This document shows, piece by piece, positions 4,559-54,374 of a stretch of 64,000 nucleotides of DNA (position 1 is the stretch's first letter; each line of letters begins with the position of its first letter). Source of the DNA: Candidatus Saccharimonadota bacterium (lineage in GTDB: Bacteria > Patescibacteriota > Saccharimonadia > CAILAD01 > BJGX01); assembly GCA_046350735.1 (NCBI GenBank), contig JAXLZU010000001.1, positions 76,530 through 140,529 on the forward strand. The letters run 5' to 3'. A program made the translations under genes and the position numbers. The notes under the pieces were generated by a model. That model did not search any database, had not been told where the DNA came from, and worked only from the letters and a program-made list of their open reading frames with translations.

Positions 4559-5470
4559 ATGTCAAATTACTCGAATGTAGTGCTATCTGATGACCCTAAT
4601 ACCCCATGGTATCGAATATTTGCGTATATTGAGCCACAAAGCAGAGTTCTTGATGTTGGTTGTAGCGCCGGTAATTTTGGCAAGGCACTAATCGATCAGA
4701 AAAAGTGTATGGTTGATGGTATTGAAGTTAACAAACAAGATTCTATAAAAGCTAAAAAGAAACTGATGAATGTATATAATATTAATATTGAGAACACAGA
4801 TTTTAAAAACTTACCAGGTGACTATCGATATATATATTTTGGCGATGTTATTGAGCATTTAGTTGATCCAGTTTCAGTGTTGAAAAAAATTACAAAATTA
4901 TTATCCAAAGATGGTGAAATATTATTTTCTATACCAAATATGGCACATCTTTCTGTTCGATTAATGCTTTTAAGTGGCGAATTCAATTATGCTAAAACAG
5001 GATTACTCGATAATACTCACCTTCACTTTTATACGTTTAAGGAGATTGAAAGAGTATTTAATGAAGCAGGGTATGAGATTGTTTATCAAAAACCAATTAT
5101 TAAAGAGTATCCCCGTAAACTACTAGCTAAAGAATTAAAGAAAGTCGGTCTTAAAGGTGAAGAAACTTTCTTTAAAAGAGCATTGAATTCTGATGCTGTG
5201 GTTTGGCAGTATGTAGGAGCTGCAAGAAGATCAAACACACCCAAAGAAGCAGCTGTTCTACCGGCCATTAGCCCTGGATTAGAATTTGAAGAATTATATG
5301 CAACAACAGCTCAAGAATGCAGAGATATTATTTTAGAAAATAAGCAATTACAAGAACAATACCAAACTGCACTCAAAGTGATTAGACAAAAAAATAAAGA
5401 ACTACACACGTCTAAAAATCTCCCTTATTTTGTTATGAAAAAAATAAAAAACAGACTAAAGAGCACTTAG
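4559..5470 (+). CDS. class I SAM-dependent methyltransferase with C-terminal coiled-coil tail
   Basis: Motif I VLDVGCSAGNFG. AAGGAG RBS 8 nt upstream of the ATG at 4559. C-terminal heptad-like KQLQEQYQTALKVIRQKNKEL. Confidence 0.8.
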   Translation: MSNYSNVVLSDDPNTPWYRIFAYIEPQSRVLDVGCSAGNFGKALIDQKKCMVDGIEVNKQDSIKAKKKLMNVYNINIENTDFKNLPGDYRYIYFGDVIEHLVDPVSVLKKITKLLSKDGEILFSIPNMAHLSVRLMLLSGEFNYAKTGLLDNTHLHFYTFKEIERVFNEAGYEIVYQKPIIKEYPRKLLAKELKKVGLKGEETFFKRALNSDAVVWQYVGAARRSNTPKEAAVLPAISPGLEFEELYATTAQECRDIILENKQLQEQYQTALKVIRQKNKELHTSKNLPYFVMKKIKNRLKST

Positions 5471-5471
5471 T

Positions 5472-7433
5472 ATGGTTTCTGATAAAAATTCTGTCTCACA
5501 TCAAAATATCTTAGAAGTTAATAACGAGTTCTTTAATGAGGATGAAAGCAAAGAAATATATGTACGAAATAAAAATGATCCTCGATTAATTTCATTCTAC
5601 TTGCCACAATTTTACCCTATCCCCGAGAATGACAAGAGTTGGGGTAAAGGGTTTACGGAATGGACAAATGTTAGAAAAGCTGAGCCACGCTTCGTAGGCC
5701 ATCAACAACCATTTTTACCTCTGAACGATGACTATTACGATCTGAGAGATCCGAATGTTTTAGAACAACAAATACGATTAGCCAAACAATATGGTATCTT
5801 TGGTTTTTGCTTTTACCACTATTGGTTCAGTGGAAAAAGACTACTAGATGTGCCTCTAGATATCTTTTTACAAAATAAGCAATGGGACTTTGGTTTTATG
5901 ATTTGTTGGGCAAATGAGAATTGGACAAAACGCTGGGATGGCAGAGAAGAAGAAATAATTATCGCCCAAAAATATAGAGATAATGACCCCTTAGAATTCA
6001 TCAAGTCTGTTGAACATATAATAATTGATCCGCGCTATATAAGAAACAATAACAAGCCTGTGCTAATGGTTTATAGAGCACCTGACCTGAGGGATCCACT
6101 TGCTTACTCAAATATCTGGAGAAAATATTTGCGCGATAAATACTCAATTGAGATTGAACTTGTAACCACAATAGGTTTTGATTTGGTCGATCCACGATCG
6201 TATGGCTTTGATAAGGCCTTGGATTTTGAACCACTAACGTATGGTTTAAAAAAGTCTGGTAATGACGGTTCCCAGGTAATATCACGAAAGGTTTCAAGAA
6301 AACTAATTGATAAAGAATTTACTGGTAATGTTGAGGATTATAGGAATATAGCATTGGACGATAAACAGTATGAAGTATTTAATTTCCCAAACTACAAGGC
6401 TATTATGCCGTCGTGGGATAATGATGCCAGAAGAAAAGGAAAGGGATTTACTATGCACAATTCAACTCCTGATGTTTACGCACATTGGCTAAAAAATACA
6501 ATAAAAATAGAAACTAGTAATAATAAACAAGAACCTCTGATATTTATTAACGCCTGGAATGAATGGGGTGAAGGGGCGGTCCTAGAGCCCACAAAACATT
6601 TTGGATATGCTAACTTGTTAAGAACAGCTGAAATACTGTCGCAGTATAATAAGTCAAAGAGGAATCTAGATAATTTCCCTCTCTATAGAATTCGAAGAGG
6701 GGGAGATAGTAAGTTGGCTGTGGTAATTCACCTGGAAGGTGGACTCAACTGGGATGTTTTAAACGAGAAGCTTGGTTATTTAAAGAATATAAAACATGAT
6801 CTATTTTTTTATATATCTAAAGACTTAGATATTAGTGAATCTTATATTCAACAACTCTACCCAAATTCAAACATTTATTACTTTAGCCCTAATGAATATA
6901 TTATGATGCGCCTTATGCATGTAGGTAGACGATTACTAGAATGTGGATATGATAATCTCCTCAATATTGCATCGTCACAAAGCATCAATTTGGATAAGGG
7001 CATTGAGGATATCTTACCGAGTAAACAGCAAGCATTCAAAGCTTATAAGACACTACAGAATCATTCAAACAGCGCTATAGGGGTTACGGAGCATTCATCG
7101 CCACTTACTAATACTGTCGTTAAAGACAATCCAAAGATTAAAGAGGTTTTGTCGAATATATACAACCCAACTCTTGCGGACATTATTTTAGAAGAGACAT
7201 TTGGTTTCGGAAAGTACAAAAATTATTCTTTTTGGGTTAATCTGCCTACAATCAGCCAACTATTAAATTTTTATTTTCTACCTTATGATTTTCTTAACCC
7301 CACCGAAGGAACTCCTGATGCACTTAATGATGCGTTATGGAATGTTTTTTGGATGCTACCAAAGCTTAGAGGAGGATCTATATACAGCATCGGTAAGGGC
7401 GACATTATGACAGAAAAGTTTGAAGTAATGTAA
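5472..7433 (+). CDS. WbsX-like glycan-processing protein (Glyco_tran_WbsX family)
   Basis: N-terminal FYLPQFYPIPENDKSWGKGFTEWTNV is the hallmark of the WbsX family. 653 aa. Confidence 0.72.
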   Translation: MVSDKNSVSHQNILEVNNEFFNEDESKEIYVRNKNDPRLISFYLPQFYPIPENDKSWGKGFTEWTNVRKAEPRFVGHQQPFLPLNDDYYDLRDPNVLEQQIRLAKQYGIFGFCFYHYWFSGKRLLDVPLDIFLQNKQWDFGFMICWANENWTKRWDGREEEIIIAQKYRDNDPLEFIKSVEHIIIDPRYIRNNNKPVLMVYRAPDLRDPLAYSNIWRKYLRDKYSIEIELVTTIGFDLVDPRSYGFDKALDFEPLTYGLKKSGNDGSQVISRKVSRKLIDKEFTGNVEDYRNIALDDKQYEVFNFPNYKAIMPSWDNDARRKGKGFTMHNSTPDVYAHWLKNTIKIETSNNKQEPLIFINAWNEWGEGAVLEPTKHFGYANLLRTAEILSQYNKSKRNLDNFPLYRIRRGGDSKLAVVIHLEGGLNWDVLNEKLGYLKNIKHDLFFYISKDLDISESYIQQLYPNSNIYYFSPNEYIMMRLMHVGRRLLECGYDNLLNIASSQSINLDKGIEDILPSKQQAFKAYKTLQNHSNSAIGVTEHSSPLTNTVVKDNPKIKEVLSNIYNPTLADIILEETFGFGKYKNYSFWVNLPTISQLLNFYFLPYDFLNPTEGTPDALNDALWNVFWMLPKLRGGSIYSIGKGDIMTEKFEVM

Positions 7434-7528
7434 TTAACAAAAACAATCCAATTTACTGTGTACATAATGAAGCAGTTATATAAAAGCCAACGTAATAATA
7501 ACCTCTTATAAATGATATAATAACAGGT

Positions 7529-8500
7529 ATGAAACAACCAACTGTAAGCGTGGTAGTACCAAATTGGAATGGCAAAGACATATTAGGTAAATGCCTAGAC
7601 TCGCTACAAACACAAAGCTACAGGCCAGCTGAGATTATTGTTGTAGAGAATGGTAGTATTGATGGCTCGGCCGAGTATATTGCCAAACACTATCCAGAAG
7701 TTGCGCTGATTGTAGAACCGGAAAATCTCGGGTTTGCAGGCGGAGTAAATGTTGGTATAAAAGCAGCCAAATCTGATTATATTTGGCTGTTTAATAACGA
7801 CGCGGTGGCGCAAAAAGATTGTTTGGCCAAACTAGTGGCTACAGCAGTAAAGAGCAACGCAGATATTACCTCTGCAGTTATTCTTAGCCAAGACGGTAAA
7901 AAGATAGATTCCGATGGAGATGTCTATACTATCTATGGGTTTCCTTACCCCAGACACCGTAACTTGGCAGCTAGCGAACTACCAAAGCAAGATGAACCTA
8001 TCTTTGCTGCTAGCGGCGGTGCTAGCCTGTATAAAGCATCGCTATTTACAGACATTGGCTACTTCGAAGAATCGTTCTTTGCGTATTACGAAGATGTAGA
8101 CTTAAGTATGCGTGCACAGTTGCAGAAAAAATCTCTTTGGCTTAGCCATAATGCCATTGTGTTACATGCCACCAGCCATACCAGTAATAAAATTCCCGGG
8201 TTCGGCAGAGAGATGGCAATTAGAAATAGTATATATATCTTTTGGCGTGATCTACCAAAAGGTGTACAGGGCAAAGTTTTTTGGCGATTCTTATGTGCCA
8301 ATTGGCGGCTTAGTTTGGTTTCGATACTCAAGGGACATCCATACAGAGTTTTACGGGCGCACTTTACTGCGTTGTTCCATACTCCACAATTACTAAAGGC
8401 AAGAAAAGAAATTCAGTCTAGCAAAAAAATGAGTGCCGAACAATTTCTCGGCCTTATTAGTAGAGAGAACCCGTTTAAAGTATTAAAGAGTCGCCAGTAA
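7529..8500 (+). CDS. GT2 glycosyltransferase
   Basis: VSVVVPNWNG...IVVENGSIDGS...LFNNDAV motifs. 323 aa. Confidence 0.85.
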   Translation: MKQPTVSVVVPNWNGKDILGKCLDSLQTQSYRPAEIIVVENGSIDGSAEYIAKHYPEVALIVEPENLGFAGGVNVGIKAAKSDYIWLFNNDAVAQKDCLAKLVATAVKSNADITSAVILSQDGKKIDSDGDVYTIYGFPYPRHRNLAASELPKQDEPIFAASGGASLYKASLFTDIGYFEESFFAYYEDVDLSMRAQLQKKSLWLSHNAIVLHATSHTSNKIPGFGREMAIRNSIYIFWRDLPKGVQGKVFWRFLCANWRLSLVSILKGHPYRVLRAHFTALFHTPQLLKARKEIQSSKKMSAEQFLGLISRENPFKVLKSRQ

Positions 8501-9336
8501 TGTTAAGCATTATTACGATTAACTACAATACCCAAAAGTTGCTCGAGGATTGCTTAAACTCTATTAAGCGATATATAAATATTGAGAGTTATGAAGTAAT
8601 AGTGGTAGATAACGCCTCAGAAGAATTTAGTGAGGCAGCATTAAAAAAGATTATTCCAGGTATTACTATAATTCACTCTAAAGAAAATCTTGGTTTTGCA
8701 AAAGCCAATAACTTGGCTGCCAAGCAAGCAAAAGGCGAGTATTTGTGGTTTTTAAATAGTGACACCAAGCTAAATAAAGACAGCAATATTAGCGTGCTAA
8801 TACAGTTTTTAGATTCGCACAAAGAATATGGCGCTGCCGCACCACTCGTACTCGATGCAAAAAATGTACCACAACAATATCAATATGGGTATTGGCCAGC
8901 GGTCTGGCGTATGATACTCGAAAAGCCAGTGAACGCTAGAGTATCTAAGAATCCACTCCATGCCAAGTACTGGCGTTGGCTCAATGCAGACTATTTACCA
9001 TTGCAAAGTCGGGATGTCGACTGGGTAAGTGGTGCTGCTATGATGATACGCAAAAATGTGTTCAACGAGGTGGGTGGCTTTGAGGCTGAATACTTTTTGT
9101 ATTACGAAGATGTCGACTTGTGTCGCAAGTTGTGGGCCAACAAACAAAAGATTCGCTTCGTAAAAGATGCACAGATTATACATTTAGAAGGTGGCAGCGA
9201 GGGCGATATGTCTAAGAAAAAACTTATTGCTTATCATAGCCAAGACATTTACTTTAAGCGCTGGGGGAGTCCGGTTTCGCGATTTGCATTACACAAGGTT
9301 CGTCGACCGTACGCTAAGAGATGGCAGAAGAAATAA
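8500..9336 (+). CDS. GT2 glycosyltransferase
   Basis: LSIITINYNT...VIVVDNAS...FLNSDT motifs. Start overlaps upstream stop (TAATG). Confidence 0.85.
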   Translation: MLSIITINYNTQKLLEDCLNSIKRYINIESYEVIVVDNASEEFSEAALKKIIPGITIIHSKENLGFAKANNLAAKQAKGEYLWFLNSDTKLNKDSNISVLIQFLDSHKEYGAAAPLVLDAKNVPQQYQYGYWPAVWRMILEKPVNARVSKNPLHAKYWRWLNADYLPLQSRDVDWVSGAAMMIRKNVFNEVGGFEAEYFLYYEDVDLCRKLWANKQKIRFVKDAQIIHLEGGSEGDMSKKKLIAYHSQDIYFKRWGSPVSRFALHKVRRPYAKRWQKK

Positions 9337-12104
9337 AATCATATATAGCACAAGCAAATGTCTATTTGCTAAGCGCACTGTTATTCTTTTTGCCATTTGA
9401 GATTTGGCCGCAACTGTATTGGTACAGCACGGCAGTTCGACCAAGCCATATCGTTGGTACTCTATTATTACTCATTAATATACCAATGCTGATAAAACGG
9501 CGTTGGGACTGGCTGCAGTTACCATGGGTATTGCTAGCCTTGTTTTTGCTAACAGGGGTTATATCGGCATTCTATAACAAAAGTACCAGCCACAGTTATC
9601 TAACTCTTATGTTGTATGGGTATGAGTTTGTGTTGGCTTTTTGTGTTGCACAAATAATTAATAAGCGAGACTTAGCATGGTATCGCAATATTATTCTTAT
9701 TAGTGGAAGTCTAGTTGTGATATTTGCCTTGTGGCAATTTTTTGGTGATGTGCTTGGTGTTTCTACTCATTACACGCTTTTGGCTACTCGCTATTCTAAG
9801 CTTATCTTTGGGTATCCTCGAATAACGGGGCTGAGTTTTGAGCCTGCTACTCTAGTAAACTATCTTATTATCCCACTTAGTCTGGCACTTGTAACATTTT
9901 TTGTAAAACCTAGTAAGCGCTATTTTGTTTTGTCTGTTGCATTCTTAAGTAGTATATTCTTGGCAACATCACGCTCGGCATTTATTGGGTTGTCGCTAAT
10001 ATCTCTTATATTGTTAGTAGTTCTTGCAGCTAAAAGGTACTATAAAGAAATTGTTTATCTTGGTTTATTAGTAGTTATGTCTGCTGTTTTTGCGGCTACA
10101 ATTTTGTTTGTAGGTGCACGCCTGGCCAGACCAGTGCAGGTAGCAGTTCCGTCTGATATTCAGACAACTATACCACAGACAGGCATTAATCCTTCGGTGG
10201 TACGTCATAACCTGACTACTCAGCTTGCTTCTGTAGAAACAAATACCTCGGTACAGACTCGCTTAGATTCATGGCGAGCAGGAATAAAAGTATTTATTAC
10301 TCATCCTGTATTAGGAATAGGACCAGGAAATTTACAGGCCACATTAGCACGACAGTTTAATGTTGATACATCAATATATAGCGGCAATTCGCTATCACGT
10401 AGCGTATATGTACAACTTTTGGCAGAGCAGGGTATTGTTGGTAGCGGCATATTAATTGTTTTTCTGATTACCTTACTTTGGTTGGCGGTACAGGTATGGC
10501 CAAGAATACATAGTAAACAAGAAGAAATATGGCTGTTGGCAATAGTACTTATGAGTATAATGTTTTTGGTGCAGTGGCAGAGCCTAGGTAATTTAGCAGT
10601 TACACATACATGGATATTTGTTGGTGTGCTCGTTGGTATCACTGGCTCGGTAAAAGTAATGTATTTAGACAATCTTCGTCGTCGTGTGCAGAGCAGTGTA
10701 TGGCTTCGCCAAAACAAATTAGCTTTAGTAATATCTGCAATAAGTTTTGGATATTATGTACTACTGCAATATTTGTTATATCGTAAGTTGCAGATACCAA
10801 TGCTCGATCTCGGTTTGTTTAACAGGCATATGTATGGGCTGGTTCACTCGGGCCTCAGCATTAATCCTCTTAAGGGCTATAATCTCTTGGGCGACCATGC
10901 GCACTTTTTCTTATTGCCACTAGTGCCACTGTATTATCTTTGGCAAGCCCCCGGATTCTTACTTGTCTTGCAAGCACTTTGTATTGTACTCAGCGGTTGG
11001 CCAATATATTTAATTGCCAAACACTATTCATCCAAGCCTCAGCTGGCAGCATTCTGGCTGCTGCCGTACTTTTTATTCTTTGGGTTCTTTTCTGCACTCG
11101 TCTATTCTTTTCACGACTCAGCTGCCGCCGTCTTACCACTGGCCTGGGTGCTGTATTTTCTATTAGTAAGTAAAAACTATCGGCATTTATGTATTGGCTT
11201 AGCAACACTGTTGCTCTTTCGCGAAGACATGCCGCTCGTAGCACTAATGGTAGCAATTTATCTAATAATAGTTGAACGTAAATATTGGCTTGGTGTAGCA
11301 ATTGGGTTTGTTAGTGCACTATATTTTGCTGTTATAACTAAGCTATGGCTACCACTATTTGGGCCGAGTTATGGATATGAAAAAACAAATTTTGGCAGCG
11401 GCATACAAGATGTAGTAAAAGCAGTATTTCTACAGCCACTTGGTGTCGTAAAAGCGTTCTTTTTGCCGAGCGAAAAGCTACGCAACATGCTAGCTATGGT
11501 ATTTTCATTCGGTGGTTTTAGTATCTTTGCTCTCGAAATAGTAATTTTACTTTTACCACTGTGGCTAGGGAGATTTTTAAGTACTGAGACATGGCGATGG
11601 GGAAGCTTTGAGCACTACTCGGCATCGCAAGCCCCAATATTGGCAGCCGCATCTATTATTGGTTTGTATCGGTTGATACAATTTTTACACAAAAATTATG
11701 GTGTTAATAAAGAGTTACTATACAAGATAGCCATTAGCTCTACGATACTATTGGCCTTTAGTATTAACATAGCTATGCACCAATATGCAGTACTAAAGCC
11801 ATTGTCCCTTCGGTTTTATAAGCTCACCCCTACAGAGCGGAGTGCTCGCACAGCATTTCAGTTAATTCCTAAAAATGCGAGCGTTGGTGCGAGCTCGGCA
11901 TTTGCTATGCTTTCTTCGCGTGCAGAGATTTATTACTTACCACTACCAGAGGGGGCACACCCAGAATATATTGTTATTTCGAGCAACCTAGAAAAATGGC
12001 CATTTATGAGCAAGCAGGAAGTTGATGAGTATATTAGTGTACTTACAAATAATGGCTATAGAGAAGTATTTAACGAAAATACTGTTGTGATACTACAAAG
12101 ATAA
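9321..12104 (+). CDS. large polytopic membrane protein: N-terminal O-antigen-ligase/Wzy_C-like domain fused to C-terminal DUF2079-like domain
   Basis: 927 aa with more than 20 predicted TM helices. Periplasmic-loop motif R..W......HP.LG.G.GN and NSLSRSVYVQLLAEQGIVG resemble the Wzy_C/WaaL family. Second half (LGDHAHFFLLPLVPLYYLW...) resembles DUF2079 predicted membrane glycosyltransferase-like proteins. Confidence 0.65.
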   Translation: MAEEIKSYIAQANVYLLSALLFFLPFEIWPQLYWYSTAVRPSHIVGTLLLLINIPMLIKRRWDWLQLPWVLLALFLLTGVISAFYNKSTSHSYLTLMLYGYEFVLAFCVAQIINKRDLAWYRNIILISGSLVVIFALWQFFGDVLGVSTHYTLLATRYSKLIFGYPRITGLSFEPATLVNYLIIPLSLALVTFFVKPSKRYFVLSVAFLSSIFLATSRSAFIGLSLISLILLVVLAAKRYYKEIVYLGLLVVMSAVFAATILFVGARLARPVQVAVPSDIQTTIPQTGINPSVVRHNLTTQLASVETNTSVQTRLDSWRAGIKVFITHPVLGIGPGNLQATLARQFNVDTSIYSGNSLSRSVYVQLLAEQGIVGSGILIVFLITLLWLAVQVWPRIHSKQEEIWLLAIVLMSIMFLVQWQSLGNLAVTHTWIFVGVLVGITGSVKVMYLDNLRRRVQSSVWLRQNKLALVISAISFGYYVLLQYLLYRKLQIPMLDLGLFNRHMYGLVHSGLSINPLKGYNLLGDHAHFFLLPLVPLYYLWQAPGFLLVLQALCIVLSGWPIYLIAKHYSSKPQLAAFWLLPYFLFFGFFSALVYSFHDSAAAVLPLAWVLYFLLVSKNYRHLCIGLATLLLFREDMPLVALMVAIYLIIVERKYWLGVAIGFVSALYFAVITKLWLPLFGPSYGYEKTNFGSGIQDVVKAVFLQPLGVVKAFFLPSEKLRNMLAMVFSFGGFSIFALEIVILLLPLWLGRFLSTETWRWGSFEHYSASQAPILAAASIIGLYRLIQFLHKNYGVNKELLYKIAISSTILLAFSINIAMHQYAVLKPLSLRFYKLTPTERSARTAFQLIPKNASVGASSAFAMLSSRAEIYYLPLPEGAHPEYIVISSNLEKWPFMSKQEVDEYISVLTNNGYREVFNENTVVILQR

Positions 12105-41884: not shown

Positions 41885-41960
41885 GGGCCCGTAGCTCAGT
41901 GGTTAGAGCAGTCGGCTCATAACCGATTGGTCCCTGGTTCAAATCCAGGCGGGCCCACCA
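41885..41960 (+). tRNA. tRNA with CAU anticodon, elongator type; resembles tRNA-Ile2 (lysidine) more than tRNA-Met
   Basis: GGGCCCGTAGCTCAGTGGTTAGAGCAGTCGGCTCATAACCGATTGGTCCCTGGTTCAAATCCAGGCGGGCCCACCA. D-loop and variable region resemble E. coli ileX. C4-G69 and C5-G68 present. Confidence 0.85.
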
Positions 41961-47439: not shown

Positions 47440-47516
47440 TGGTGGCTGGAGCTGGAATTGAACCAGCGACCTCAGGCTTATGAGTCCCGCGCTCTAACCA
47501 ACTGAGCTATCCAGCC
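47440..47516 (-). tRNA. tRNA with CAU anticodon, elongator tRNA-Met-like
   Basis: Minus-strand GGCTGGATAGCTCAGTTGGTTAGAGCGCGGGACTCATAAGCCTGAGGTCGCTGGTTCAATTCCAGCTCCAGCCACCA. D-loop AGTTGGTTA as in elongator Met. One A-G mismatch at the base of the anticodon stem. Confidence 0.78.
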
Positions 47517-48409: not shown

Positions 48410-48484
48410 CGCGGGGTAGAGCAGTGGCAGCTCGTCGGGCTCATAACCCGGAGGTCGCAGGTTCGAATCCTGCCCCCGCTACCA
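48410..48484 (+). tRNA. initiator tRNA-fMet(CAU)
   Basis: CGCGGGGTAGAGCAGTGGCAGCTCGTCGGGCTCATAACCCGAAGGTCGCAGGTTCGAATCCTGCCCCCGCTACCA. Unpaired C1-U72. Three consecutive G-C pairs closing the anticodon stem. CCA encoded. Confidence 0.9.
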
Positions 48485-48734: not shown

Positions 48735-49106
48735 ATGGCTAACTCAGATAATGGCAGTGATACAAAACTACTTTTTTTAAAAACCGCAAGAGTGCTAACC
48801 TATATAGTCTATGCGTTTATGTTGGTTGCAGTAATATTTTTATCCATTGGCTTTTTCTTGTTATTATTTGGAGCAAATCCAAACGTTGGCTTTACTCAAT
48901 TTGTTTACAAAGTAGCTGCAGAGTTTTTGCAGCCATTTAGAGGAATATTCCCAGCACATCAGGTGGGTGAAACTGGTTACTTTAGTACATCTGCACTATT
49001 TGCGATCATTATCTATATCTTACTTGCACTTGGTATAAATTCATTGATTACATATATAACAGCTAAGATGTTGCTTCACCAAAAAGAGCTAGAAAAACTT
49101 AGCTAA
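48735..49106 (+). CDS. YggT-family-like small membrane protein
   Basis: FLQPFRGIFP...FSTSALFAIIIYILLAL resembles the YggT motif. AAGGAG RBS. Confidence 0.45.
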   Translation: MANSDNGSDTKLLFLKTARVLTYIVYAFMLVAVIFLSIGFFLLLFGANPNVGFTQFVYKVAAEFLQPFRGIFPAHQVGETGYFSTSALFAIIIYILLALGINSLITYITAKMLLHQKELEKLS

Positions 49107-49186
49107 AGCATTTCTTGGTAGTAAACCTAGGTAATATAGGTGGTCATTTAGCTTATACAAGATATTAAAAGCAGGTATAATACATA

Positions 49187-50518
49187 GTGATGCTCAGTAC
49201 TCGGCTACATGACCATTTACAGGCAACCGATCTGCTACCCCCACAATCTAAATTAGTGGTGGCTGTTTCTGGTGGGGTAGATTCTGTTGCCCTTCTAAAC
49301 ATGTTACATGAGCTACAAGATTTTTATGGTTGGCAAATGGTTGTTGCACACCTAGATCATAATGCTCGTCCTTCTAGTGCACATGATGCCCAATTTGTTG
49401 CTGGCTTGGCAGAATCGTACAATATGCCGTTTTATTTAGAAAAACTCAGTAAAGACAATGCGACAACAGAAGCAGCATGGCGAGCTGCACGATACTCATT
49501 CTTAGAAAGACTTCGTGAAGAGCTCAATTACCATACTATTGTTACCGCTCACCATGGCGACGATCGAATTGAGACAGCAGTATTTAACTCTATTAGGGGG
49601 GCTGACAGGGAAGGTATTACCGCCCTCAAAGCAAAACGCGGCAATATTTCTCGCCCGCTTTTACCTTTTAGTAAGGCCGAAATTATTACCTATGCCAACC
49701 TCAAAGAATTACCATTTGTTACCGATGAAACAAATACCGACATTGGTTTTAGTCGTAACTATGTACGCGAAGAGCTCTTACCGCTGGGCAGCACAATGTA
49801 TCGTAACTTTCGTCACTCGTTTCATACCGTGCTAAATCATCTAGAAGATTTGAACAAAAAAATCTCACTAAGACTGCATAATGTTGTTACAGATCTTACC
49901 ATAAGTTCATCCGCAGAGAGTGTCGAGCTTGCCAAAGAGGGATTTCGTAAGTTGCCTGATACAATTGCTCTTAATGTAATTGCACTCTTGGCAAAACAGC
50001 TAAGCCCAGGTATTGGTCTTAGTCAGAGCAATCTAAGGCAAGCACTTGGCTTTTGGCAAACCGGCAAAAGCGGTAGTAGCAAAAACCTTAAGGCTGGCTT
50101 GCAACTCTCGATAGGATATGATACCGTAAGAATCGCATATCATACCGACGAAACCTTACTCACTTCTGAAGAAACTGCTCGATTGCTTACCGATTCTAGC
50201 CCCTATCAAAATAAACATTTTACCATCCAAATGACAGGCTCTATTGCTCAGGGGGATGATTCTGTCATTTTAAAACCAGCAAAATATTATGTACGTTTGC
50301 GCCAGAGTGGTGACAGAATTGCTCCTATTGGTTTGCAAGGCAGCAAGAAATTACAAGATATATTTGTTGATAAAAAAATACCGCGAGAGCTCAGAGGACA
50401 TTGGCCTATCATTGTAAATAGTCGTAATGAGGTAGTATGGGTGCCATTTATTGCCACGAGTCGCAACCACAGTGTTGACTCAAAAAGCGGTATAAAGATA
50501 GTTTGTAAGAAGAATTAA
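49187..50518 (+). CDS. tilS: tRNA(Ile)-lysidine synthetase
   Basis: PP-loop SGGVDS. TilS-type N-terminal domain. 443 aa. Confidence 0.9.
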   Translation: MMLSTRLHDHLQATDLLPPQSKLVVAVSGGVDSVALLNMLHELQDFYGWQMVVAHLDHNARPSSAHDAQFVAGLAESYNMPFYLEKLSKDNATTEAAWRAARYSFLERLREELNYHTIVTAHHGDDRIETAVFNSIRGADREGITALKAKRGNISRPLLPFSKAEIITYANLKELPFVTDETNTDIGFSRNYVREELLPLGSTMYRNFRHSFHTVLNHLEDLNKKISLRLHNVVTDLTISSSAESVELAKEGFRKLPDTIALNVIALLAKQLSPGIGLSQSNLRQALGFWQTGKSGSSKNLKAGLQLSIGYDTVRIAYHTDETLLTSEETARLLTDSSPYQNKHFTIQMTGSIAQGDDSVILKPAKYYVRLRQSGDRIAPIGLQGSKKLQDIFVDKKIPRELRGHWPIIVNSRNEVVWVPFIATSRNHSVDSKSGIKIVCKKN

Positions 50519-50520
50519 TT

Positions 50521-52347
50521 ATGATGAAAAAGATACCACGACAGGTTTTTTATATTGTAGCTGCTTTAGTTATTCTGGGTGGCTTGCTTGCCTATGCAAA
50601 TTTTAGTGAGCCCAAAACTACCCAGGTGAGTATTAGTAAAATGATAGAACAGGCCAATGCTGGCCAGATAGATAAGATAGAAGTTGCTGGTGATAATCTT
50701 ACTATCACACTTAAAGATGGTACAAAAGAAGAAGCTATAAAAGAGTCAAACACCAATCTAAAAGACTACGGTATTGATTACACAAAGGTAAAAGTTGAAG
50801 CGAAAAATCCTGATTCTGGATTGACAAAAATTTTTGATTTTCTCCTAACAATACTGCCTATTGCACTTATTATTGGCTTCTTCTACTTTATTATGCGCCA
50901 GGCGCAAGGTAGCAATAACCAGGCAATGAGCTTCGGTAAGAGCAAAGCACGTGTGTTTGGTCTAGAAAAAGAAAAAGTAAAATTTAGCGATGTAGCCGGT
51001 GCGATAGAGGCTAAGACTGAATTGCAAGAAATTGTAGAGTTTCTAAAATACCCTACCAAATTTGAATCACTTGGCGCAAAGATTCCAAAAGGGGTACTGC
51101 TATTTGGCTCGCCTGGTACGGGTAAAACTCTTTTGGCCCGTGCTGTGGCGGGTGAAGCAGATGTGCCTTTCTTTTCTATCTCAGGTTCGGAATTTGTAGA
51201 AATGTTTGTGGGTGTAGGCGCTAGTCGTGTACGAGATCTCTTTGGTAAAGCTAAGAAAAATGCACCATGTATTATTTTTATAGACGAGATTGATGCTGTT
51301 GGTCGCCAACGTGGTGCTGGCTTAGGAGGTGGTCATGACGAGCGCGAACAAACACTTAACCAGATATTGGTAGAAATGGATGGATTTGAGCAGGGCACTA
51401 ATGTAATTGTAATGGCTGCTACCAACAGACCAGATGTACTCGACCCAGCGTTACTTCGTCCAGGTAGGTTTGATCGTCGTATTACACTCGATGCACCAGA
51501 CATGAAGGCCCGCGAAGAAATTTTAGAAGTACACACCAAGAATAAACCACTCGATAGCTCAGTAAAGCTTGGTGAGATTGCCCGCAAAACCCCTGGTGTA
51601 TCCGGTGCAGATCTTGCTAACATTGCCAACGAAGCGGCTATCTTTGCAGCTCGAGCAAACCGTAAAAAACTGATCCAAGCAGACTTTCATGAAGCTGTCG
51701 AAAAGATTGCCCTTGGCCCAGAGCGAAAAAGCCATATTCTTAATGATAATGAGAAAAAGCTTACTGCATACCACGAGGCCGGACATGCCTTACTGAGCCA
51801 TTTGCTACCCAAGTGCCATCCGGTACATAAGGTATCGATTGTTAGCCGTGGTATGGCTGGCGGCGTTACTTGGAGTCTACCAGAAGAAGACAAGCATTTA
51901 CATTCTATTGCCGATTTTAAAGATGATCTTGCCATGAGTCTCGGTGGACGTAGTGCCGAAAAGCTTGTTTTTGGTGAAGAAAACATTACTACCGGTGCTG
52001 AAAGCGATCTAAAACACGCCAATGAACTTGCCAAACGTATGGTAACAGAATATGGCATGAGCGATAAGCTGAAGAATCGTTTCTTTGGTGATGGTGAAGG
52101 CTCTGTCTTTTTGGGTCGCAGTATGGGCGAAGGTAAAAATTACTCAGAAGAAATGGCAGCTGTTATTGATAACGAAGTAGCCAAGCTGATTAACGAAGCA
52201 AGCAAAAAGGCCGAAGACACTATTCGTAAAAATCGCAAAAAACTCGATCTCATTGCTACTACTTTAATAGAGAAAGAAACGCTCGAAGGGCCTGCTTTTG
52301 CAAAGCTCTTTGCACCTATAGACAAAGCTGCTCGCAAAAAAGCCTAA
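50521..52347 (+). CDS. ftsH: ATP-dependent zinc metalloprotease FtsH
   Basis: Two TM helices. AAA+ Walker A GPPGTGKT-like (GSPGTGKT). SRH. Zinc-binding HEAGHA. Confidence 0.95.
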
Positions 52348-52433
52348 GCAAATTCGTCTGTAACTACTACACTCTAGCTGCTTAGCTTGACGCTCCATAA
52401 CCATAACCTCTATACTATTTACATATAAGAGAA

Positions 52434-54374
52434 GTGGAGTATATGCCCGAAGAACAGGTAGCAGAAATAGTTGCGCCAACTTGGCTAAAAGTTACTACTT
52501 GGTTATTACTAATAACCACTGGAATTATTCTAGTAATTCTCTGTTTTTGGTGGCGACAATATACCGCAAAGATAGACGATCTTACCTCTCGTAACTATGT
52601 CGGAAAGACTGATACTGGCGATTTCTTAAAGCAAGGAATGAGTGCAACAACAGGCCAGTTAACTGTTGATGGTAAAGCCATCATTAATGGCGATTTGCAT
52701 GTTACGGGTACTATTACGACAGATCAGAATAATATTAGCGTATCTAACTCAGCAGGTAATTATTATACCAATTACTTTGCCGGTGGTTGTAGTGCTCAGG
52801 TAATCTGTAACTCTACACTACTGCAAACAAGAAAAGAATTTGTTATTCAGCCAAGTAGTCCGTACGTAGTTGGCGCTACAGTTCGAGGTAACACAACACA
52901 GGCAGTCGATCTCTTACAGCTTCAAAATGCATCTGGATACTCTATGATAAATGTTACTGCGAATGGTAGGCTCGGAGTGAATAATCCAAGTCCGCAATAT
53001 AATGTTGACGTCAATGGTCAAGGAAGATTTTTGGGGCATACTGCGTATGGTAATGTATCAGCTGTAGATAATCCAAGTATACTTACACCGCTTACAGGCA
53101 CCCCTGTTATTAGGGTAAATGGCACCCAAGAGGTTGTTACAAATTTAACCCCCGGGTATAACTATTATTCTGGTGCATCTTCCGAATATTTTGTTAATTT
53201 GGGACAATCTGCTAATTCTCAGTACTTTACAGGTGGATATCATGCGGGTGAGATTGTTAGCGGTAACCCTCAAGACTATTTAGGATTAGCAGGAGAGACT
53301 GGTCTTGCAGTACATGAGGGCACTGGCAATATTAATTTAATGTCTGGTATATTGGGCTACACCTTTAATAACTCTAGTGGTAATATTGGTGCGGCGGCTG
53401 GAACATTTGGATTTCTGAAAAACAATGATAGTGGCAATATTGATACCGGCGTTGGTGCAGGAGGGGTAATAGAAAATCCTGGAGTTGGTGTAATAGGAAT
53501 TGCGAATGGTTTGTCTTCTAGTGTAATTAACGGTGGTCTTTTCGGTGGAGGCTCTGGTTCTATTGGTAATGCAAATGGGGTATCTGCTGGCGTAACCAAT
53601 AATAGTTCTGGAACTATAGATAATGTCACAGTTTATGATGTTCAGCCGGTAGTAAATAATGGCGGTGCAATCGGTAATGTAAGAGGGATTTATATCGGCG
53701 ACCAAAGCGCAGTTGCTAATGTTTCTGGAGTTAAGTACAACCTAGAGTCTATGGGAAATAATAGTACTAATCTTTTCCATGGTGCAGTTGGTGTTGGCTC
53801 TGGTGCTGCACCAACCAATAAACTTACTGTTACCGACACCACCACCAACAACGTTGCCAAGTTTAACGGTACTGGCGTAAATCAATGTACCGTCGTAGCT
53901 GGTACTGGATGGAGCTGTAGTAGTGATGAAACATTAAAGACTAACATTCTAAGTATTAGTAATGGCCTCGGTGTCATTACCCAACTTCAAGGTGTCACCT
54001 ATAACTGGAAGAGTGACCCTAACGGTACCCGCCAAGATGGCTTTATTGCCCAAGACATCCAAAAGATCTTACCCGAACTCGTTACTACCGACTCTAACGG
54101 TAAACTCTCTCTTAACAAAGACGGTATTATGCCCTTTATTGTAGAAGCCATAAAAGAACAAAACGGCAACTTAGACAAAACCAACCAACAACTCTCTGAC
54201 CAAGGTATTAAACTCACTAGCCTGAGTGATGAGTTGGTGGCACTGACGAAGCGGGTAGATCAGCATGATGTGGATATAGAACAATTAAAGGCGCAAGTAC
54301 AACAACTAAATAGTCGTCTGCAAAAACTCGAACCAGCGAATACTAATTCTACTAACACTACTACAACACCATAA
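52434..54374 (+). CDS. membrane-anchored tail-fibre-like surface protein with C-terminal intramolecular-chaperone (peptidase S74-type) domain
   Basis: N-terminal TM helix. About 400 aa of Gly/Asn/Ser-rich beta-repeat region (SGNIGAAAGTFGF..., SGNIDTGVGAGG...). C-terminus SSDETLKTNI...GVTYNWKSD...GFIAQDIQKILPELV...GIMPFIVEAIKEQ matches the phage tail-fibre chaperone/autoproteolytic domain. Start may be the GTG at 52434 or the ATG at 52443. Confidence 0.72.
   Translation: MEYMPEEQVAEIVAPTWLKVTTWLLLITTGIILVILCFWWRQYTAKIDDLTSRNYVGKTDTGDFLKQGMSATTGQLTVDGKAIINGDLHVTGTITTDQNNISVSNSAGNYYTNYFAGGCSAQVICNSTLLQTRKEFVIQPSSPYVVGATVRGNTTQAVDLLQLQNASGYSMINVTANGRLGVNNPSPQYNVDVNGQGRFLGHTAYGNVSAVDNPSILTPLTGTPVIRVNGTQEVVTNLTPGYNYYSGASSEYFVNLGQSANSQYFTGGYHAGEIVSGNPQDYLGLAGETGLAVHEGTGNINLMSGILGYTFNNSSGNIGAAAGTFGFLKNNDSGNIDTGVGAGGVIENPGVGVIGIANGLSSSVINGGLFGGGSGSIGNANGVSAGVTNNSSGTIDNVTVYDVQPVVNNGGAIGNVRGIYIGDQSAVANVSGVKYNLESMGNNSTNLFHGAVGVGSGAAPTNKLTVTDTTTNNVAKFNGTGVNQCTVVAGTGWSCSSDETLKTNILSISNGLGVITQLQGVTYNWKSDPNGTRQDGFIAQDIQKILPELVTTDSNGKLSLNKDGIMPFIVEAIKEQNGNLDKTNQQLSDQGIKLTSLSDELVALTKRVDQHDVDIEQLKAQVQQLNSRLQKLEPANTNSTNTTTTP

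What the first reader, a model, noticed from the sequence alone, without database searches (positions are those of the whole stretch)
52434..54374. Membrane-anchored surface protein ending in a phage tail-fibre intramolecular chaperone (S74) domain
The C-terminal 110 aa (SSDETLKTNI...GVTYNWKSD...GFIAQDIQKILPELV...IMPFIVEAIKEQ) match the self-cleaving chaperone domain of phage tail fibres and endosialidases. It is preceded by a long Gly/Asn-rich beta-repeat region and an N-terminal TM anchor. The gene is housekeeping-embedded (between ftsH and murJ), not in a prophage. This suggests a cellular, trimeric fibre-like adhesin, possibly for host attachment, whose folding uses a phage-derived autoproteolytic chaperone.
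Basis: partly seen in the sequence, partly recalled or inferred. Interest (0 to 1): 0.6.

Follow-up and report, generated by a model that had tools for sequence, protein, structure and literature searches.

The report
Membrane-anchored phage-type fibre in Saccharibacteria
A tiny parasitic bacterium (Saccharibacteria) carries, among its housekeeping genes, a membrane-anchored protein built like a phage tail fibre with the phage self-cleaving folding domain; it belongs to a shuffled multi-copy family and is a good candidate for how these parasites grip their host cells.

Summary
The ORF (most likely 52443-54374, 643 aa; the GTG at 52434 adds 3 aa) ends in a genuine Peptidase_S74 intramolecular chaperone. 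Pfam gives 60.8 bits against a cutoff of 22. The SDxxxK Ser497/Lys502 dyad is invariant in 48 homologues. A confident model of the C-terminal module matches the MyRF, K1F and GA-1 chaperone structures. A 21-residue N-terminal hydrophobic helix and an 18-residue-periodic Gly/Asn-rich beta region precede it.

The genome is Candidatus Saccharibacteria, and the neighbours are divIC-yggT-tilS-ftsH and murJ-lepA-hrcA-grpE-dnaK. Relatives keep the ftsH/murJ site. Other paralogues sit after the ATP synthase genes. No phage genes were seen in the loci whose neighbours were examined. No viral record or contig carries the body or the anchor. 21 of 23 Saccharibacteria/Patescibacteria S74 ORFs have an N-terminal TM helix, against 0 of 37 viral ones. 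The family is mosaic: anchor, body and tip-plus-chaperone modules reassort, and the 3' module was recently exchanged with a same-genome paralogue.

Best reading: a trimeric cell-surface fibre that folds with its S74 chaperone, cleaves at Ser497 and stays membrane-anchored, probably for host recognition. The closest known analogues are the Bdellovibrio MAT fibres. Trimerisation, cleavage, surface display and adhesion are inferred. NCBI already labels the protein "tail fiber domain-containing".

The parts
52387..52416 (+). Promoter-like site (TTGACG, 18 nt spacer, TATACT), 27 nt upstream of the ATG in the 95-nt gap after ftsH
   Evidence: It is a consensus match only; the number of such sites in the region equals the shuffle expectation. 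Well placed but unproven.
52443..54374 (+). Coding sequence of the S74 fibre protein (643 aa plus stop). The alternative GTG start at 52434 would add 3 aa.
   Evidence: P0001, 100% identical, 643 aa; GGAG at 52436-52439. dN/dS of about 0.1 against the orthologue in L005 shows a functional gene.
52443..52490 (+). Short acidic N-terminal tail (aa 1-16, MPEEQVAEIVAPTWLK), predicted to be cytoplasmic
   Evidence: Together with the TM helix it forms an anchor module that is 82-85% identical in the otherwise unrelated paralogues P0014/P0015.
52491..52553 (+). Single transmembrane helix / signal anchor (aa 17-37, VTTWLLLITTGIILVILCFWW)
   Evidence: Kyte-Doolittle 19-residue maximum of 2.45. The position is conserved in all full-length homologues. 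The model shows a helix at aa 13-48 with pLDDT 55-70. No small-residue -3/-1 signal-peptidase motif is visible in the sequence.
52554..53921 (+). Mature fibre ectodomain (aa 38-493; 46.4 kDa), beta-rich and Gly/Asn/Val/Thr/Ser-rich, with two conserved Cys pairs (C116/C122, C482/C492)
   Evidence: The body is rare: only 2 clusters at E<=1e-30 and 5 at E<=1e-10 among 1.84 billion representatives.
52971..53012 (+). First 'capping-loop' motif (aa 177-190, LGVNNPSPQYNVDV)
   Evidence: Regex match. It resembles the MAT/MyRF motif V-G-G/N-pi-x-x-P-x-x-x-L described in PMC10769870. Conserved in orthologues.
53250..53732 (+). Gly/Asn-rich beta-solenoid-like region (aa ~270-430) with 18-residue periodicity
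   Evidence: Autocorrelation peaks at lags 18 and 36 for G, N and G+N. Regular short beta strands with pLDDT 56-70 in the otherwise poor full-length model. No DNA-level repeats.
53787..53831 (+). Second capping-loop motif (aa 449-463, VGVGSGAAPTNKLTV), 31 residues before the cleavage serine
   Evidence: hhalign aligns it with the last capping loop of the Bdellovibrio MAT-type protein P0021, which in turn matches the solved Bd3182 tip 8ojn.
53829..54289 (+). Recently exchanged 'tip plus chaperone' module (gene nt 1387-1847, aa ~463-616)
   Evidence: 94.8% nt identity to the gene of paralogue P0013 in L002, against 75.9% to the positional orthologue in L005. Over codons 461-617, dS is 0.27 against the paralogue; against the orthologue in L005, windowed dS over codons 421-540 is 1.6-2.5. 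Protein identity to P0011 is 95-100% from about aa 480 and only 12-45% before aa 440.
53922..53939 (+). The predicted scissile bond is Ser493-Ser494.
   Evidence: Ser and Lys are invariant in 48 of 48 aligned S74 proteins and in 12 of 12 family members. The Ser(i)/Lys(i+5) spacing equals T5 pb1 Ser1264/Lys1269, which cleaves the bond before the Ser (PMC4690869), and the Bdellovibrio SDxxxK motif.
53922..54086 (+). Peptidase_S74 (PF13884) core of the intramolecular chaperone (aa 494-548 in 643-aa numbering)
   Evidence: 60.8 bits. The module model has pLDDT above 90 here. Foldseek: 7dc3 MyRF ICA E=1e-5, probability 1.0; 3gw6 and 3gud intramolecular chaperones, probability 0.98-1.0.
54117..54329 (+). 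Two long helices (aa 559-586 and 591-629) forming the helical part of the chaperone, predicted to be a trimeric coiled coil or six-helix bundle
   Evidence: helices H123-150 and H155-193 of the fragment; block-mean pLDDT mostly 88-97, with a dip to 72 at the hinge and 75 at the far C-terminal end. Only weak coiled-coil family hits. Solved chaperones have a central trimeric coiled coil (PMC4690869).
54330..54371 (+). Thr/Asn-rich C-terminal tail ending in a conserved Pro (aa 630-643)
   Evidence: terminal Pro conserved in at least 90% of sequences. Function unknown. It lies on the fragment predicted to be released.

Best explanation
The gene encodes a chromosomal, vertically maintained cell-surface fibre of a Saccharibacteria (CPR/Patescibacteria) bacterium. 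It is built on the plan of a phage tail fibre or tailspike.

Proposed mechanism, with shown and inferred steps marked:
(1) The single N-terminal helix (aa 17-37) acts as an uncleaved signal anchor. The 16-residue tail stays in the cytoplasm and about 600 residues are exported. This step is inferred.
(2) Outside the membrane, three chains are held close together by their anchors. Their C-terminal S74 chaperone domains trimerise and template folding of the beta-rich body from the C-terminus backwards. This is inferred from the family's known mechanism.
(3) Once the trimer is correct, Ser494 is activated by Lys499 and cuts the Ser493-Ser494 bond, releasing a 16.5-kDa chaperone fragment. The motif, fold and invariance are shown; the cleavage is inferred.
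(4) The mature 50.7-kDa chains remain as a membrane-tethered trimeric fibre whose distal tip is the conserved segment just before the cut. By scaling from the Bd3182 model, the fibre would be a few tens of nanometres long, enough to pass the wall. This is inferred.
(5) The fibre binds a surface structure, most likely a glycan, of the bacterial host on which the epibiont lives.

The gene is one member of a multi-copy family whose anchor, body and tip-plus-chaperone modules are reshuffled by recombination between paralogues. This diversifies binding specificity in the way phage receptor-binding proteins and Bdellovibrio MAT fibres diversify. The modularity and the exchange are shown; the link to specificity is inferred.
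For: S74 identity: Pfam 60.8 bits against a cutoff of 22; invariant Ser/Lys in 48 of 48 sequences; C-terminal module model with pLDDT 81.8, whose top eight PDB matches are all intramolecular chaperones (7dc3, 3gw6, 3gud); profile hits to phage fibres 6f45 and 8jov.

Cellular, not viral: all neighbours are housekeeping genes. The orthologue in sister genome L005 sits at the same ftsH/murJ site; L003 has it directly after ftsH, and the P0004 contig directly before murJ-lepA. A second site after the ATP synthase genes (atpA-G-D, plus atpC in L050/L051) holds S74 genes in L004, L007, L013, L014, L050 and L051: tandem sets of two or more in L004, L007, L013 and L014, and a single gene in L050/L051. 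Phage records and IMG/VR contigs match only aa 366 onward, at no more than 55% identity.

Membrane targeting: 21 of 23 complete Saccharibacteria/Patescibacteria S74 ORFs have a KD>=2.4 segment starting at residues 18-81, against 0 of 37 viral ORFs.

Extracytoplasmic location: cysteines outside the TM helix come in close pairs in nearly every family member with an N-terminal TM helix. Paralogues P0011-13 carry the near-identical C-terminal module behind an unambiguous N-in anchor (RLRKR before the TM).

Trimer and adhesin character: collagen-like GXY runs in 14 relatives; YadA/Ata-like head repeats in the same-genome paralogue P0013; a Kelch propeller insert in body relative P0054.

Functional gene evolving fast: dN/dS is about 0.1, but dN is 0.162 against 0.006-0.055 for most neighbours and 0.127 for grpE.

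Mosaicism and recent exchange.

Precedent: Bdellovibrio MAT fibres end in S74 with SDxxxK, self-cleave, are surface-displayed and bind prey glycans (PMC10769870). The window family aligns with a MAT-type protein over the last capping loop plus S74 at 98.5% probability.
Against: No multimer prediction or experiment was possible, so trimerisation, cleavage and surface display are all inferred.

The full-length monomer model is unusable (pLDDT 41), so the fold of the body is not established.

For this protein and its closest orthologues, the positive-inside rule does not favour N-in. The N flank has 1 Lys/Arg and 3 acidic residues; the C flank has 3 Lys/Arg.

The neighbouring-chain Arg that completes the catalytic site in T5 pb1 (Arg1250) has no obvious conserved counterpart upstream of the Ser.

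No binding domain of known specificity is present. Nothing links the gene to host contact experimentally. The Saccharibacteria Tn-seq study and its supplements do not mention such proteins.

Overall dN/dS shows purifying rather than positive selection.
Confidence: 0.6

Rival explanations
1. The architecture and S74 maturation are the same, but the fibre is not a host adhesin. It is a general envelope component, such as a spacer, a protective coat, an S-layer-like or glycocalyx scaffold, or a biofilm or abiotic-surface attachment fibre.
For: No recognisable receptor-binding or lectin domain in this member. The gene sits among cell-envelope and division genes (DivIC, FtsH, MurJ). Overall purifying selection. 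No experimental link to host contact.
Against: The family is multi-copy, mosaic and fast-evolving, and its modules are exchanged. That pattern is typical of recognition proteins rather than structural coats. Paralogues carry adhesin-type modules: YadA-like heads, collagen-like segments and a Kelch propeller. The characterised phage and Bdellovibrio S74 fibres read here (T5 pb1 and the MAT fibres) are target-recognition proteins.
Confidence: 0.15
2. The N-terminal hydrophobic segment only targets the protein for export and is then removed, or the fibre is shed. The mature trimer would act away from the cell as a released lectin, toxin carrier or decoy, or would reattach non-covalently to the wall.
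For: Other cellular S74 proteins (Bacteroidota, Bdellovibrio MATs) use cleavable signal peptides. The charge distribution around the helix is atypical for a type II anchor.
Against: The hydrophobic stretch is 21 residues long and begins at residue 17, not at residues 1-10. Paralogues have 18-80-residue N-terminal tails before it. No conserved small-residue -3/-1 cleavage motif follows it (sequence). The anchor module is itself conserved and exchanged between paralogues.
Confidence: 0.1
3. The protein lies N-out/C-in, so the fibre and the S74 domain are cytoplasmic. In that case it would be a MyRF-like membrane-tethered protein with some intracellular role.
For: The positive-inside rule for the window protein gives 1 Lys/Arg on the N side and 3 on the C side. 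S74 domains fold in the cytoplasm in phage-infected cells and in MyRF. The best structural match is the MyRF ICA domain.
Against: S74 cleavage here would release only the chaperone, not a functional N-terminal domain. There is no DNA-binding or other effector domain. Cys residues are paired. The composition is Gly/Asn/Ser/Thr-rich with few charged residues. The identical C-terminal module is used behind clear N-in anchors in paralogues.
Confidence: 0.04
4. The gene is a decaying remnant of a phage tail-fibre gene with no present function, or part of an unrecognised prophage or tailocin.
For: PHROG tail-fibre and baseplate profiles match it. S74 is predominantly a phage domain: 1040 phage records match.
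Against: The ORF is intact, with dN/dS of about 0.1. Its position between housekeeping genes is conserved in several genomes. No phage genes were found in the parts of the 64-kb window that were sampled, or in the relatives' loci that were examined. No viral contig carries the body or the anchor. Viral S74 ORFs never have the TM anchor.
Confidence: 0.03

Closest known systems
Bdellovibrio bacteriovorus MAT (mosaic adhesive trimer) fibres, S74 subgroup, e.g. Bd3182 (Caulton et al. 2024, PMC10769870; PDB 8ojn)
   Same: Both are chromosomal, non-phage, multi-copy families in a bacterium that lives on other bacteria. Both have a C-terminal S74 chaperone with SDxxxK, a capping-loop motif shortly before the cleavage serine, and a mosaic architecture with one conserved end and variable modules. 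hhalign gives 98.5% probability over the last capping loop plus S74 against the MAT-type protein P0021.
   Different: MATs have a cleavable signal peptide followed by a conserved ~130-aa beta-rich N-terminal domain and occur in diderm predators. This family has an uncleaved TM helix, no detectable similarity to the N-terminal region or body of the MAT-type protein P0021, and comes from a Saccharibacterium. Saccharibacteria are described in the literature as having a Gram-positive-like envelope; this was not tested here. No Patescibacteria are listed among the MAT-like proteins in that paper's Table S3. Here the tip-plus-chaperone end is the conserved, exchanged module, whereas in MATs the tip is the variable part.
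Phage tail fibres and tailspikes with a C-terminal intramolecular chaperone: K1F endosialidase (3gw6), GA-1 neck appendage (3gud), T5 pb1 (PMC4690869), S16 gp37 (6f45)
   Same: S74 domain, Ser/Lys(i+5) dyad, helical C-terminal part and a beta-rich fibre body before it. Sequence and fold matches.
   Different: This protein is not in a phage and has no virion-attachment N-terminus; it has a TM anchor instead (0 of 37 viral S74 ORFs have one). Similarity to any phage record stops at the S74 region (at most 32% of the protein, at most 41% identity). The released fragment is 150 aa, against 133 aa in T5 pb1.
Eukaryotic MyRF ICA domain (7dc3)
   Same: Best structural match of the C-terminal module (E=1e-5, TM-score 0.53-0.60 on the target, 25-26% identity). 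Both are membrane proteins that use the phage chaperone domain.
   Different: According to the literature (not tested here), MyRF has its TM segment C-terminal to the ICA domain, and cleavage frees an N-terminal transcription factor. Here the TM helix is N-terminal and cleavage would free only the chaperone. No DNA-binding domain is present.
Trimeric autotransporter adhesins (YadA, Ata; type Vc secretion)
   Same: Both are trimeric fibre adhesins made of repetitive beta modules. The same-genome paralogue P0013 carries YadA/Ata-like head repeats and a collagen-like stretch.
   Different: No C-terminal beta-barrel translocator or anchor. Anchoring is by an N-terminal TM helix and trimerisation by an S74 chaperone. 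The window protein itself has no YadA repeats.

Membership tests
Peptidase S74 / C-terminal intramolecular chaperone domain (PF13884) | Significant match to the family HMM above the curated threshold | tested here: met
   60.8 bits against a cutoff of 22, E=1.5e-16, full model coverage, aa 497-551 of the 646-aa ORF.
Peptidase S74 / C-terminal intramolecular chaperone domain (PF13884) | Catalytic Ser and Lys five residues apart (SDxxxK) | tested here: met
   SDETLK is present. Ser and Lys are invariant in 12 of 12 family members and in 48 of 48 diverse homologues. The spacing is the same as T5 Ser1264/Lys1269.
Peptidase S74 / C-terminal intramolecular chaperone domain (PF13884) | Fold of solved chaperone domains (alpha/beta core plus long helices) | tested here: met
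   The module model has pLDDT 81.8. The top eight Foldseek PDB hits are all intramolecular chaperones: 7dc3, 3gw6 and 3gud, probability 0.98-1.0.
Peptidase S74 / C-terminal intramolecular chaperone domain (PF13884) | Located at the C-terminus of a beta-rich fibre or spike | tested here: met
   The domain occupies the last 150 of 643 residues, after a Gly/Asn-rich periodic beta region.
Peptidase S74 / C-terminal intramolecular chaperone domain (PF13884) | Trimerisation-dependent self-cleavage that releases the chaperone | not testable with these tools
   Only monomer prediction is available and no experiment was possible. The neighbouring-chain Arg of T5/K1F was not identified by sequence (one search compared).
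Bdellovibrio MAT superfamily (PMC10769870) | Signal peptide followed by the conserved ~130-aa beta-rich N-terminal domain | tested here: not met
   The window protein has a 21-residue TM helix starting at residue 17 and no signal-peptidase motif. hhalign and BLASTP find no N-terminal similarity to the MAT-type protein P0021. Caveat: no verified MAT N-domain sequence was available for a direct test.
Bdellovibrio MAT superfamily (PMC10769870) | Capping-loop motif V-G-G/N-pi-x-x-P-x-x-x-L in the beta-helical tip before S74 | tested here: met
   Two copies, at aa 177-190 and aa 449-463. The second aligns with the last capping loop of P0021, which matches Bd3182 / 8ojn.
Bdellovibrio MAT superfamily (PMC10769870) | Multi-copy, mosaic family encoded in the chromosome of a bacterium that attacks other bacteria | tested here: met
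   Several S74 loci per Saccharibacteria genome and tandem arrays. Module reassortment. The epibiotic lifestyle of Saccharibacteria comes from the literature (PMC10633639) and is not shown for this MAG.
Bdellovibrio MAT superfamily (PMC10769870) | Display on the cell surface and binding of prey or host surface glycans | not testable with these tools
   Requires localisation and binding experiments.
Phage tail fibre / tailspike (virion component) | Encoded in a phage or prophage next to other virion genes | tested here: not met
   Neighbours are housekeeping genes here and in the relatives examined. Phage and IMG/VR matches are limited to the S74 region.
Phage tail fibre / tailspike (virion component) | Soluble protein with an N-terminal virion-attachment region | tested here: not met
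   An N-terminal TM helix is present. 0 of 37 viral S74 ORFs have a comparable hydrophobic segment.
Trimeric autotransporter adhesin (type Vc) | C-terminal YadA-type beta-barrel membrane anchor | tested here: not met
   No YadA_anchor or autotransporter hit in Pfam or NCBIfam. The C-terminus is S74.
MyRF-type membrane-tethered factor | ICA domain N-terminal to the TM segment, with a releasable N-terminal DNA-binding domain | tested here: not met
   The TM helix is at the N-terminus and no DNA-binding domain is present. Only the ICA/S74 fold is shared.

The most novel reading that the evidence does not exclude
Saccharibacteria, and perhaps other Patescibacteria, may set their host range the way phages do. 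On this reading they use a chromosomal repertoire of membrane-anchored, S74-matured receptor-binding fibres, and recombination between paralogues at fixed housekeeping hot spots (after ftsH and after the ATP synthase genes) swaps anchor, body and tip modules and so retargets the epibiont to new hosts. Fibre repertoires would then predict which hosts uncultured CPR bacteria can colonise.
Probability: 0.3. Interest if true: 0.8.

Novelty: new variant of a known kind. Interest (0 to 1): 0.55.

Why it matters
How ultrasmall CPR/Patescibacteria epibionts recognise and hold on to their host bacteria is largely unknown. Type IV pili have been implicated, and additional close-range surface adhesins have been postulated but not identified (PMC11623550; PMC10633639).

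This locus, and the family around it, gives concrete and testable candidates. They are phage-style receptor-binding fibres that are membrane-anchored, multi-copy, fast-evolving and reshuffled by recombination.

The finding also extends the recently described idea of cellular S74 fibres (Bdellovibrio MATs) to a different phylum, a different anchoring solution and an epibiotic parasite. That suggests convergent or shared use of phage receptor-binding hardware by bacteria that live on other bacteria.

No paper in the searchable library pairs Saccharibacteria or Patescibacteria with S74 or tail-fibre-domain proteins. The gene does carry an automatic 'tail fiber domain-containing protein' label, so the domain itself is not a discovery.

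Tried and rejected
- Full-length AlphaFold2 monomer with the 12-sequence alignment: mean pLDDT 41. It was not used for fold search. No multimer option exists, so the trimer could not be modelled.
- BLASTP without composition correction suggested similarity to the Bdellovibrio protein over aa 243-624. hhalign confines the real homology to the last capping loop plus S74, so I treat the longer match as compositional.
- Prophage or tailocin context: none was found in the parts of the window that were sampled, or in the relatives' loci that were examined.
- Phage (INPHARED) and IMG/VR searches found only S74-region matches.
- Trimeric autotransporter and MyRF-type architectures were rejected on domain order.
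- Profile search of the PDB gave no significant hit for the body.
- The exact-sequence lookup of P0001 for the source record failed: not on record.
- The Tn-seq paper's text and supplements have no mention of tail fibre, S74 or endosialidase. It therefore remains unknown whether cultivated strains carry the family.
- Rfam, DNA repeat and terminator scans around the gene found nothing relevant.
- The positive-inside rule gave no clear topology for this protein. I rely instead on paired cysteines and on paralogues that share the module behind clear N-in anchors.


Full report
**What is there.** The window holds an uninterrupted ORF at 52434-54374 on the + strand. The database protein that is 100% identical (P0001, 643 aa, 'MAG: tail fiber domain-containing protein [Candidatus Saccharibacteria bacterium]', on a 797,647-bp contig) starts at the ATG at 52443. 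So do all homologues ('MPEEQ...'), and a GGAG lies just upstream. I therefore take 52443 as the start.

**The S74 claim.** Pfam PF13884 (Peptidase_S74, 'chaperone of endosialidase') matches with E=1.5e-16 and 60.8 bits against a curated cutoff of 22, covering the whole model. More than 15 PHROG tail-fibre and baseplate families hit the same region. A profile of the family hits the phage S16 long tail fibre tip (6f45, E=4.9e-7) and another phage fibre (8jov) among PDB sequences. The motif SDETLK supplies a Ser and a Lys five residues apart. Both are invariant in the 12 full-length relatives and in an alignment of 48 diverse S74 proteins. The spacing is that of T5 pb1 Ser1264/Lys1269, where the bond before the Ser is cut (PMC4690869), and of the Bdellovibrio SDxxxK motif. 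An AlphaFold2 model of the C-terminal 207 residues built on that alignment is confident (mean pLDDT 81.8, above 90 over the core). Its top eight Foldseek matches in the PDB are all intramolecular chaperones: the MyRF ICA domain 7dc3 (E=1e-5), the K1F endosialidase chaperone 3gw6 and the GA-1 chaperone 3gud. The module has the S74 core, two long helices (aa 559-586 and 591-629) and a Thr-rich tail. The fragment released by cleavage would be 150 aa and 16.5 kDa, not 110 aa.

**The rest of the protein.** Residues 17-37 (VTTWLLLITTGIILVILCFWW) form a strongly hydrophobic segment (Kyte-Doolittle 2.45 over 19 residues). It is conserved in position in every full-length homologue and is not followed by a signal-peptidase-type motif. 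The ectodomain (aa 38-493) is 16% Gly and 12% Asn and has few charged residues. It shows an 18-residue periodicity between about aa 270 and 430, with regular short strands in the otherwise poor full-length model (mean pLDDT 41). It contains two copies of the 'capping-loop' motif that Caulton et al. described in Bdellovibrio fibres and MyRF (aa 177-190 and 449-463). It has two conserved cysteine pairs (116/122 and 482/492). Across the family, cysteines outside the TM helix come in close pairs, which is the pattern expected for disulfide-stapled extracytoplasmic proteins. The body is rare. An exhaustive HMMER search of 1.84 billion representatives with aa 38-460 found only 2 clusters at E<=1e-30 and 5 at E<=1e-10. 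The few weaker relatives that were scanned are again fibre-type proteins with chaperone tails. One carries an inserted Kelch propeller, and two giant proteins repeat a ~65-aa segment of the body 13-14 times.

**Context.** Pfam confirms the neighbours as DivIC, YGGT, TilS and FtsH upstream and MurJ, LepA, HrcA, GrpE and DnaK downstream. The sampled ORFs in the rest of the window are cellular too: a surface-polysaccharide cluster, a lipase and malic enzyme. There is only one S74 gene in the window.

In sister genome L005 the same gene order holds, with the orthologue P0003 between ftsH and murJ. In L003 the orthologue follows ftsH as the second gene of a tandem S74 pair. On the P0004 contig two S74 genes precede murJ-lepA. 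A more distant orthologue (P0008) lies among metabolic genes.

A second recurrent site emerged. In L004, L007, L013 and L014, tandem sets of two or more S74 genes lie directly downstream of the ATP synthase alpha, gamma and beta subunit genes. In L050 and L051 a single S74 gene follows the epsilon subunit gene and is followed by gyrB and gyrA. None of these loci shows phage genes.

Against 50,697 phage records, 1040 match, but only within aa 385-605, at no more than 41% identity and covering no more than 32% of the protein. In IMG/VR, 47 loci match only from aa 366 onward, at no more than 55% identity.

**Cellular versus viral S74 proteins.** I extracted every S74-bearing ORF from the fetched loci and scored the first 130 residues for hydrophobicity.
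- Saccharibacteria/Patescibacteria: 21 of 23 5'-complete ORFs have a segment with KD 2.4-3.4, starting at residues 18-81. This is a true signal anchor preceded by a tail.
- Other cellular lineages (mostly Bacteroidota): 7 of 39 reach 2.2 and 16 of 39 fall between 1.6 and 2.2, mostly starting at residues 1-10. This is signal-peptide-like.
- Viral contigs: 0 of 37 reach even 1.6.

Many Saccharibacteria paralogues have Arg/Lys clusters immediately before the helix (RLRKR, HNRR, AHRR and similar), which indicates N-in/C-out. The window protein and its nearest orthologues are the exception, with 1 Lys/Arg before the helix and 3 after, so the charge rule alone does not fix their orientation. I still place the fibre outside the cell. 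The reasons are the paired cysteines, the composition, and the fact that paralogues P0011-13 carry a C-terminal module 95-100% identical to this one behind an unambiguous N-in anchor.

**A mosaic, exchanging family.** Compared in 40-residue windows:
- P0011 (another metagenome) is 12-45% identical up to aa 440 and 95-100% identical from about aa 480 to the end.
- P0013, which one search places on the same 797,647-bp contig, is 95-100% identical over aa ~480-600 and unrelated elsewhere.
- P0014 and P0015, the tandem partners of the orthologue in sister genomes, share the first 40 residues (tail plus TM helix) at 82-85% and little else.

At the DNA level, gene nt 1387-1847 are 94.8% identical to the P0013 gene, against 75.9% to the positional orthologue in L005. 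Over codons 461-617, dS against the paralogue is 0.27. Against the orthologue, windowed dS over codons 421-540 is 1.6-2.5. This indicates recent gene conversion or module exchange between paralogues. Anchor, body and tip-plus-chaperone therefore reassort independently.

Against L005, the gene has dN 0.162 (77% amino-acid identity). Its neighbours have dN 0.006-0.055 (92-100% identity), and grpE has 0.127. dN/dS is about 0.1, though dS is saturated. The gene is functional but is the fastest-changing protein in the neighbourhood.

Trimeric-adhesin hallmarks occur in relatives. Collagen-like GXY runs of 6-18 triplets occur in 14 proteins. YadA/Ata-like head repeats occur in P0013 (PF05658; NF033481 E=4e-14, below the full-length cutoff).

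**How it most likely works.** Shown: a genuine S74 chaperone with an intact dyad at the C-terminus of a beta-rich, periodic body; an N-terminal membrane helix; chromosomal and conserved context; and family mosaicism. Inferred from established knowledge of S74 proteins (PMC4690869; PMC10769870):
1. Three chains are exported with the N-terminal helix retained in the membrane.
2. The chaperone domains trimerise and template folding of the fibre.
3. Correct trimer formation activates Ser494 through Lys499, and the Ser493-Ser494 bond is cut.
4. The 16.5-kDa chaperone leaves, exposing the distal tip.
5. The 50.7-kDa chains stay as a membrane-tethered trimeric fibre.

The role in host recognition rests on three things: the epibiotic lifestyle of cultivated Saccharibacteria (PMC10633639), the recognition function of the characterised phage and Bdellovibrio S74 fibres read here (T5 pb1 and the MAT fibres), and the family's copy number, mosaicism and fast evolution. 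It is plausible but untested. I give the whole chain 0.6. The structural and maturation part alone would rate higher, and the host-adhesion part lower.

**Comparison with what is known.** The nearest described system is the Bdellovibrio MAT ('mosaic adhesive trimer') superfamily. Thirteen of its 21 members end in S74 with SDxxxK, self-cleave, are displayed on the predator surface and bind prey glycans. P0021, a B. bacteriovorus protein that matches the solved Bd3182 tip 8ojn, aligns with the window family at 98.5% hhalign probability, but only over the last capping loop plus S74. The defining MAT N-terminus (signal peptide plus a conserved ~130-aa domain) is not present here, so I do not file this protein as a MAT member. 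It works like one but is anchored differently. Caulton's list of MAT-like proteins in other predators covers Oligoflexia, Micavibrio, Myxococcales, the FCB group, Ca. Uabimicrobium and Omnitrophica, but no Patescibacteria.

It is not a virion fibre (context, TM anchor). It is not a trimeric autotransporter (no beta-barrel anchor). It is not MyRF-like in logic (the TM helix is on the other side of the chaperone). Searches of the paper library found nothing that pairs Saccharibacteria or Patescibacteria with S74 or tail-fibre-domain proteins, and the Tn-seq and type IV pilus papers do not mention them.

**Verdict.** This is a new variant of a known kind: a TM-anchored, S74-matured fibre family in Saccharibacteria, already auto-labelled at the domain level but, as far as the searchable literature shows, not described or interpreted. 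Interest is moderate to fairly high (0.55). It offers concrete candidates for the unknown host-recognition hardware of CPR epibionts, but every functional step still needs experiments, and a specialist who knows the 2024 Bdellovibrio work would not be greatly surprised.

Noticed in passing
window 48735-51600, compared with L005: yggT, tilS and the first ~300 codons of ftsH are nearly identical to sister genome L005 (dS 0.00-0.08, 98-99.5% nt identity). The rest of ftsH and all other genes compared have dS of about 1-2.4 (74-85% nt identity). This looks like a recent homologous-recombination import of at least 2.7 kb between two Saccharibacteria lineages. One breakpoint lies inside ftsH (about 51,400-51,600) and the other lies between divIC and yggT.
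   Followed up: partly
L004 1-8600; L007 1-16400; L013 3600-16300; L014 1-11100; L050/L051 4000-10400: A second conserved site for S74 fibre genes lies directly downstream of the F-type ATP synthase genes (atpA-atpG-atpD, plus atpC in L050/L051). L004, L007, L013 and L014 carry tandem sets of two or more S74 genes there (ORFs of 671-1827 aa; up to five large ORFs in L007, not all confirmed as S74). L050/L051 carry a single S74 gene followed by gyrB-gyrA.
   Followed up: partly
window 54330-54371 (aa 630-643) and the C-termini of all family members: Every full-length family member ends in a Thr/Ser/Asn/Pro-rich tail whose very last residue is Pro (conserved in at least 90% of sequences). The tail lies on the fragment predicted to be released after cleavage. 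Its purpose is unknown.
   Followed up: no
window 41885-41960 (+), 47440-47516 (-), 48410-48484 (+): Three tRNA genes with anticodon CAT lie within 6.6 kb. The last is 700 nt upstream of tilS (49187-50518), the enzyme that modifies CAT-anticodon tRNA-Ile2. One of the three may therefore be tRNA-Ile2 rather than tRNA-Met.
   Followed up: no
L002 1-12064 (sister assembly GCA_964570715.1): The paralogue P0013 has a collagen-like run, YadA/Ata-like head repeats and the shared S74 module. It sits next to a 2263-aa protein with no significant Pfam hit (a weak, sub-threshold H-type lectin match at its C-terminus), a two-component system, and another 1154-aa S74 protein. This may be a surface-protein island.
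   Followed up: partly
window 725-12104: A surface-polysaccharide cluster: a GT2 glycosyltransferase, a Wzt-type ABC ATPase with a Wzt_C domain, a WbsX glycosyltransferase, and a 927-aa membrane protein with Wzy_C (O-antigen ligase-like) and DUF2079 domains.
   Followed up: no
P0055 (2104 aa) and P0056 (2488 aa): A ~65-residue segment of the fibre body recurs 13-14 times in two giant proteins. It corresponds to aa ~113-177 of the 643-aa protein, includes the Cys116/Cys122 pair and ends just before the first capping loop. One of the giant proteins has a weak Peptidase_G2 intramolecular-chaperone hit. The segment may be an unrecognised repeat domain.
   Followed up: partly
window 53337-53705 (-), 53357-53629 (-), 53999-54217 (-): Antisense ORFs of 72-122 aa lie inside the S74 gene. 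They look like by-products of the Gly/Asn/Ser/Thr-rich coding strand, and nothing suggests they are genes.
   Followed up: no
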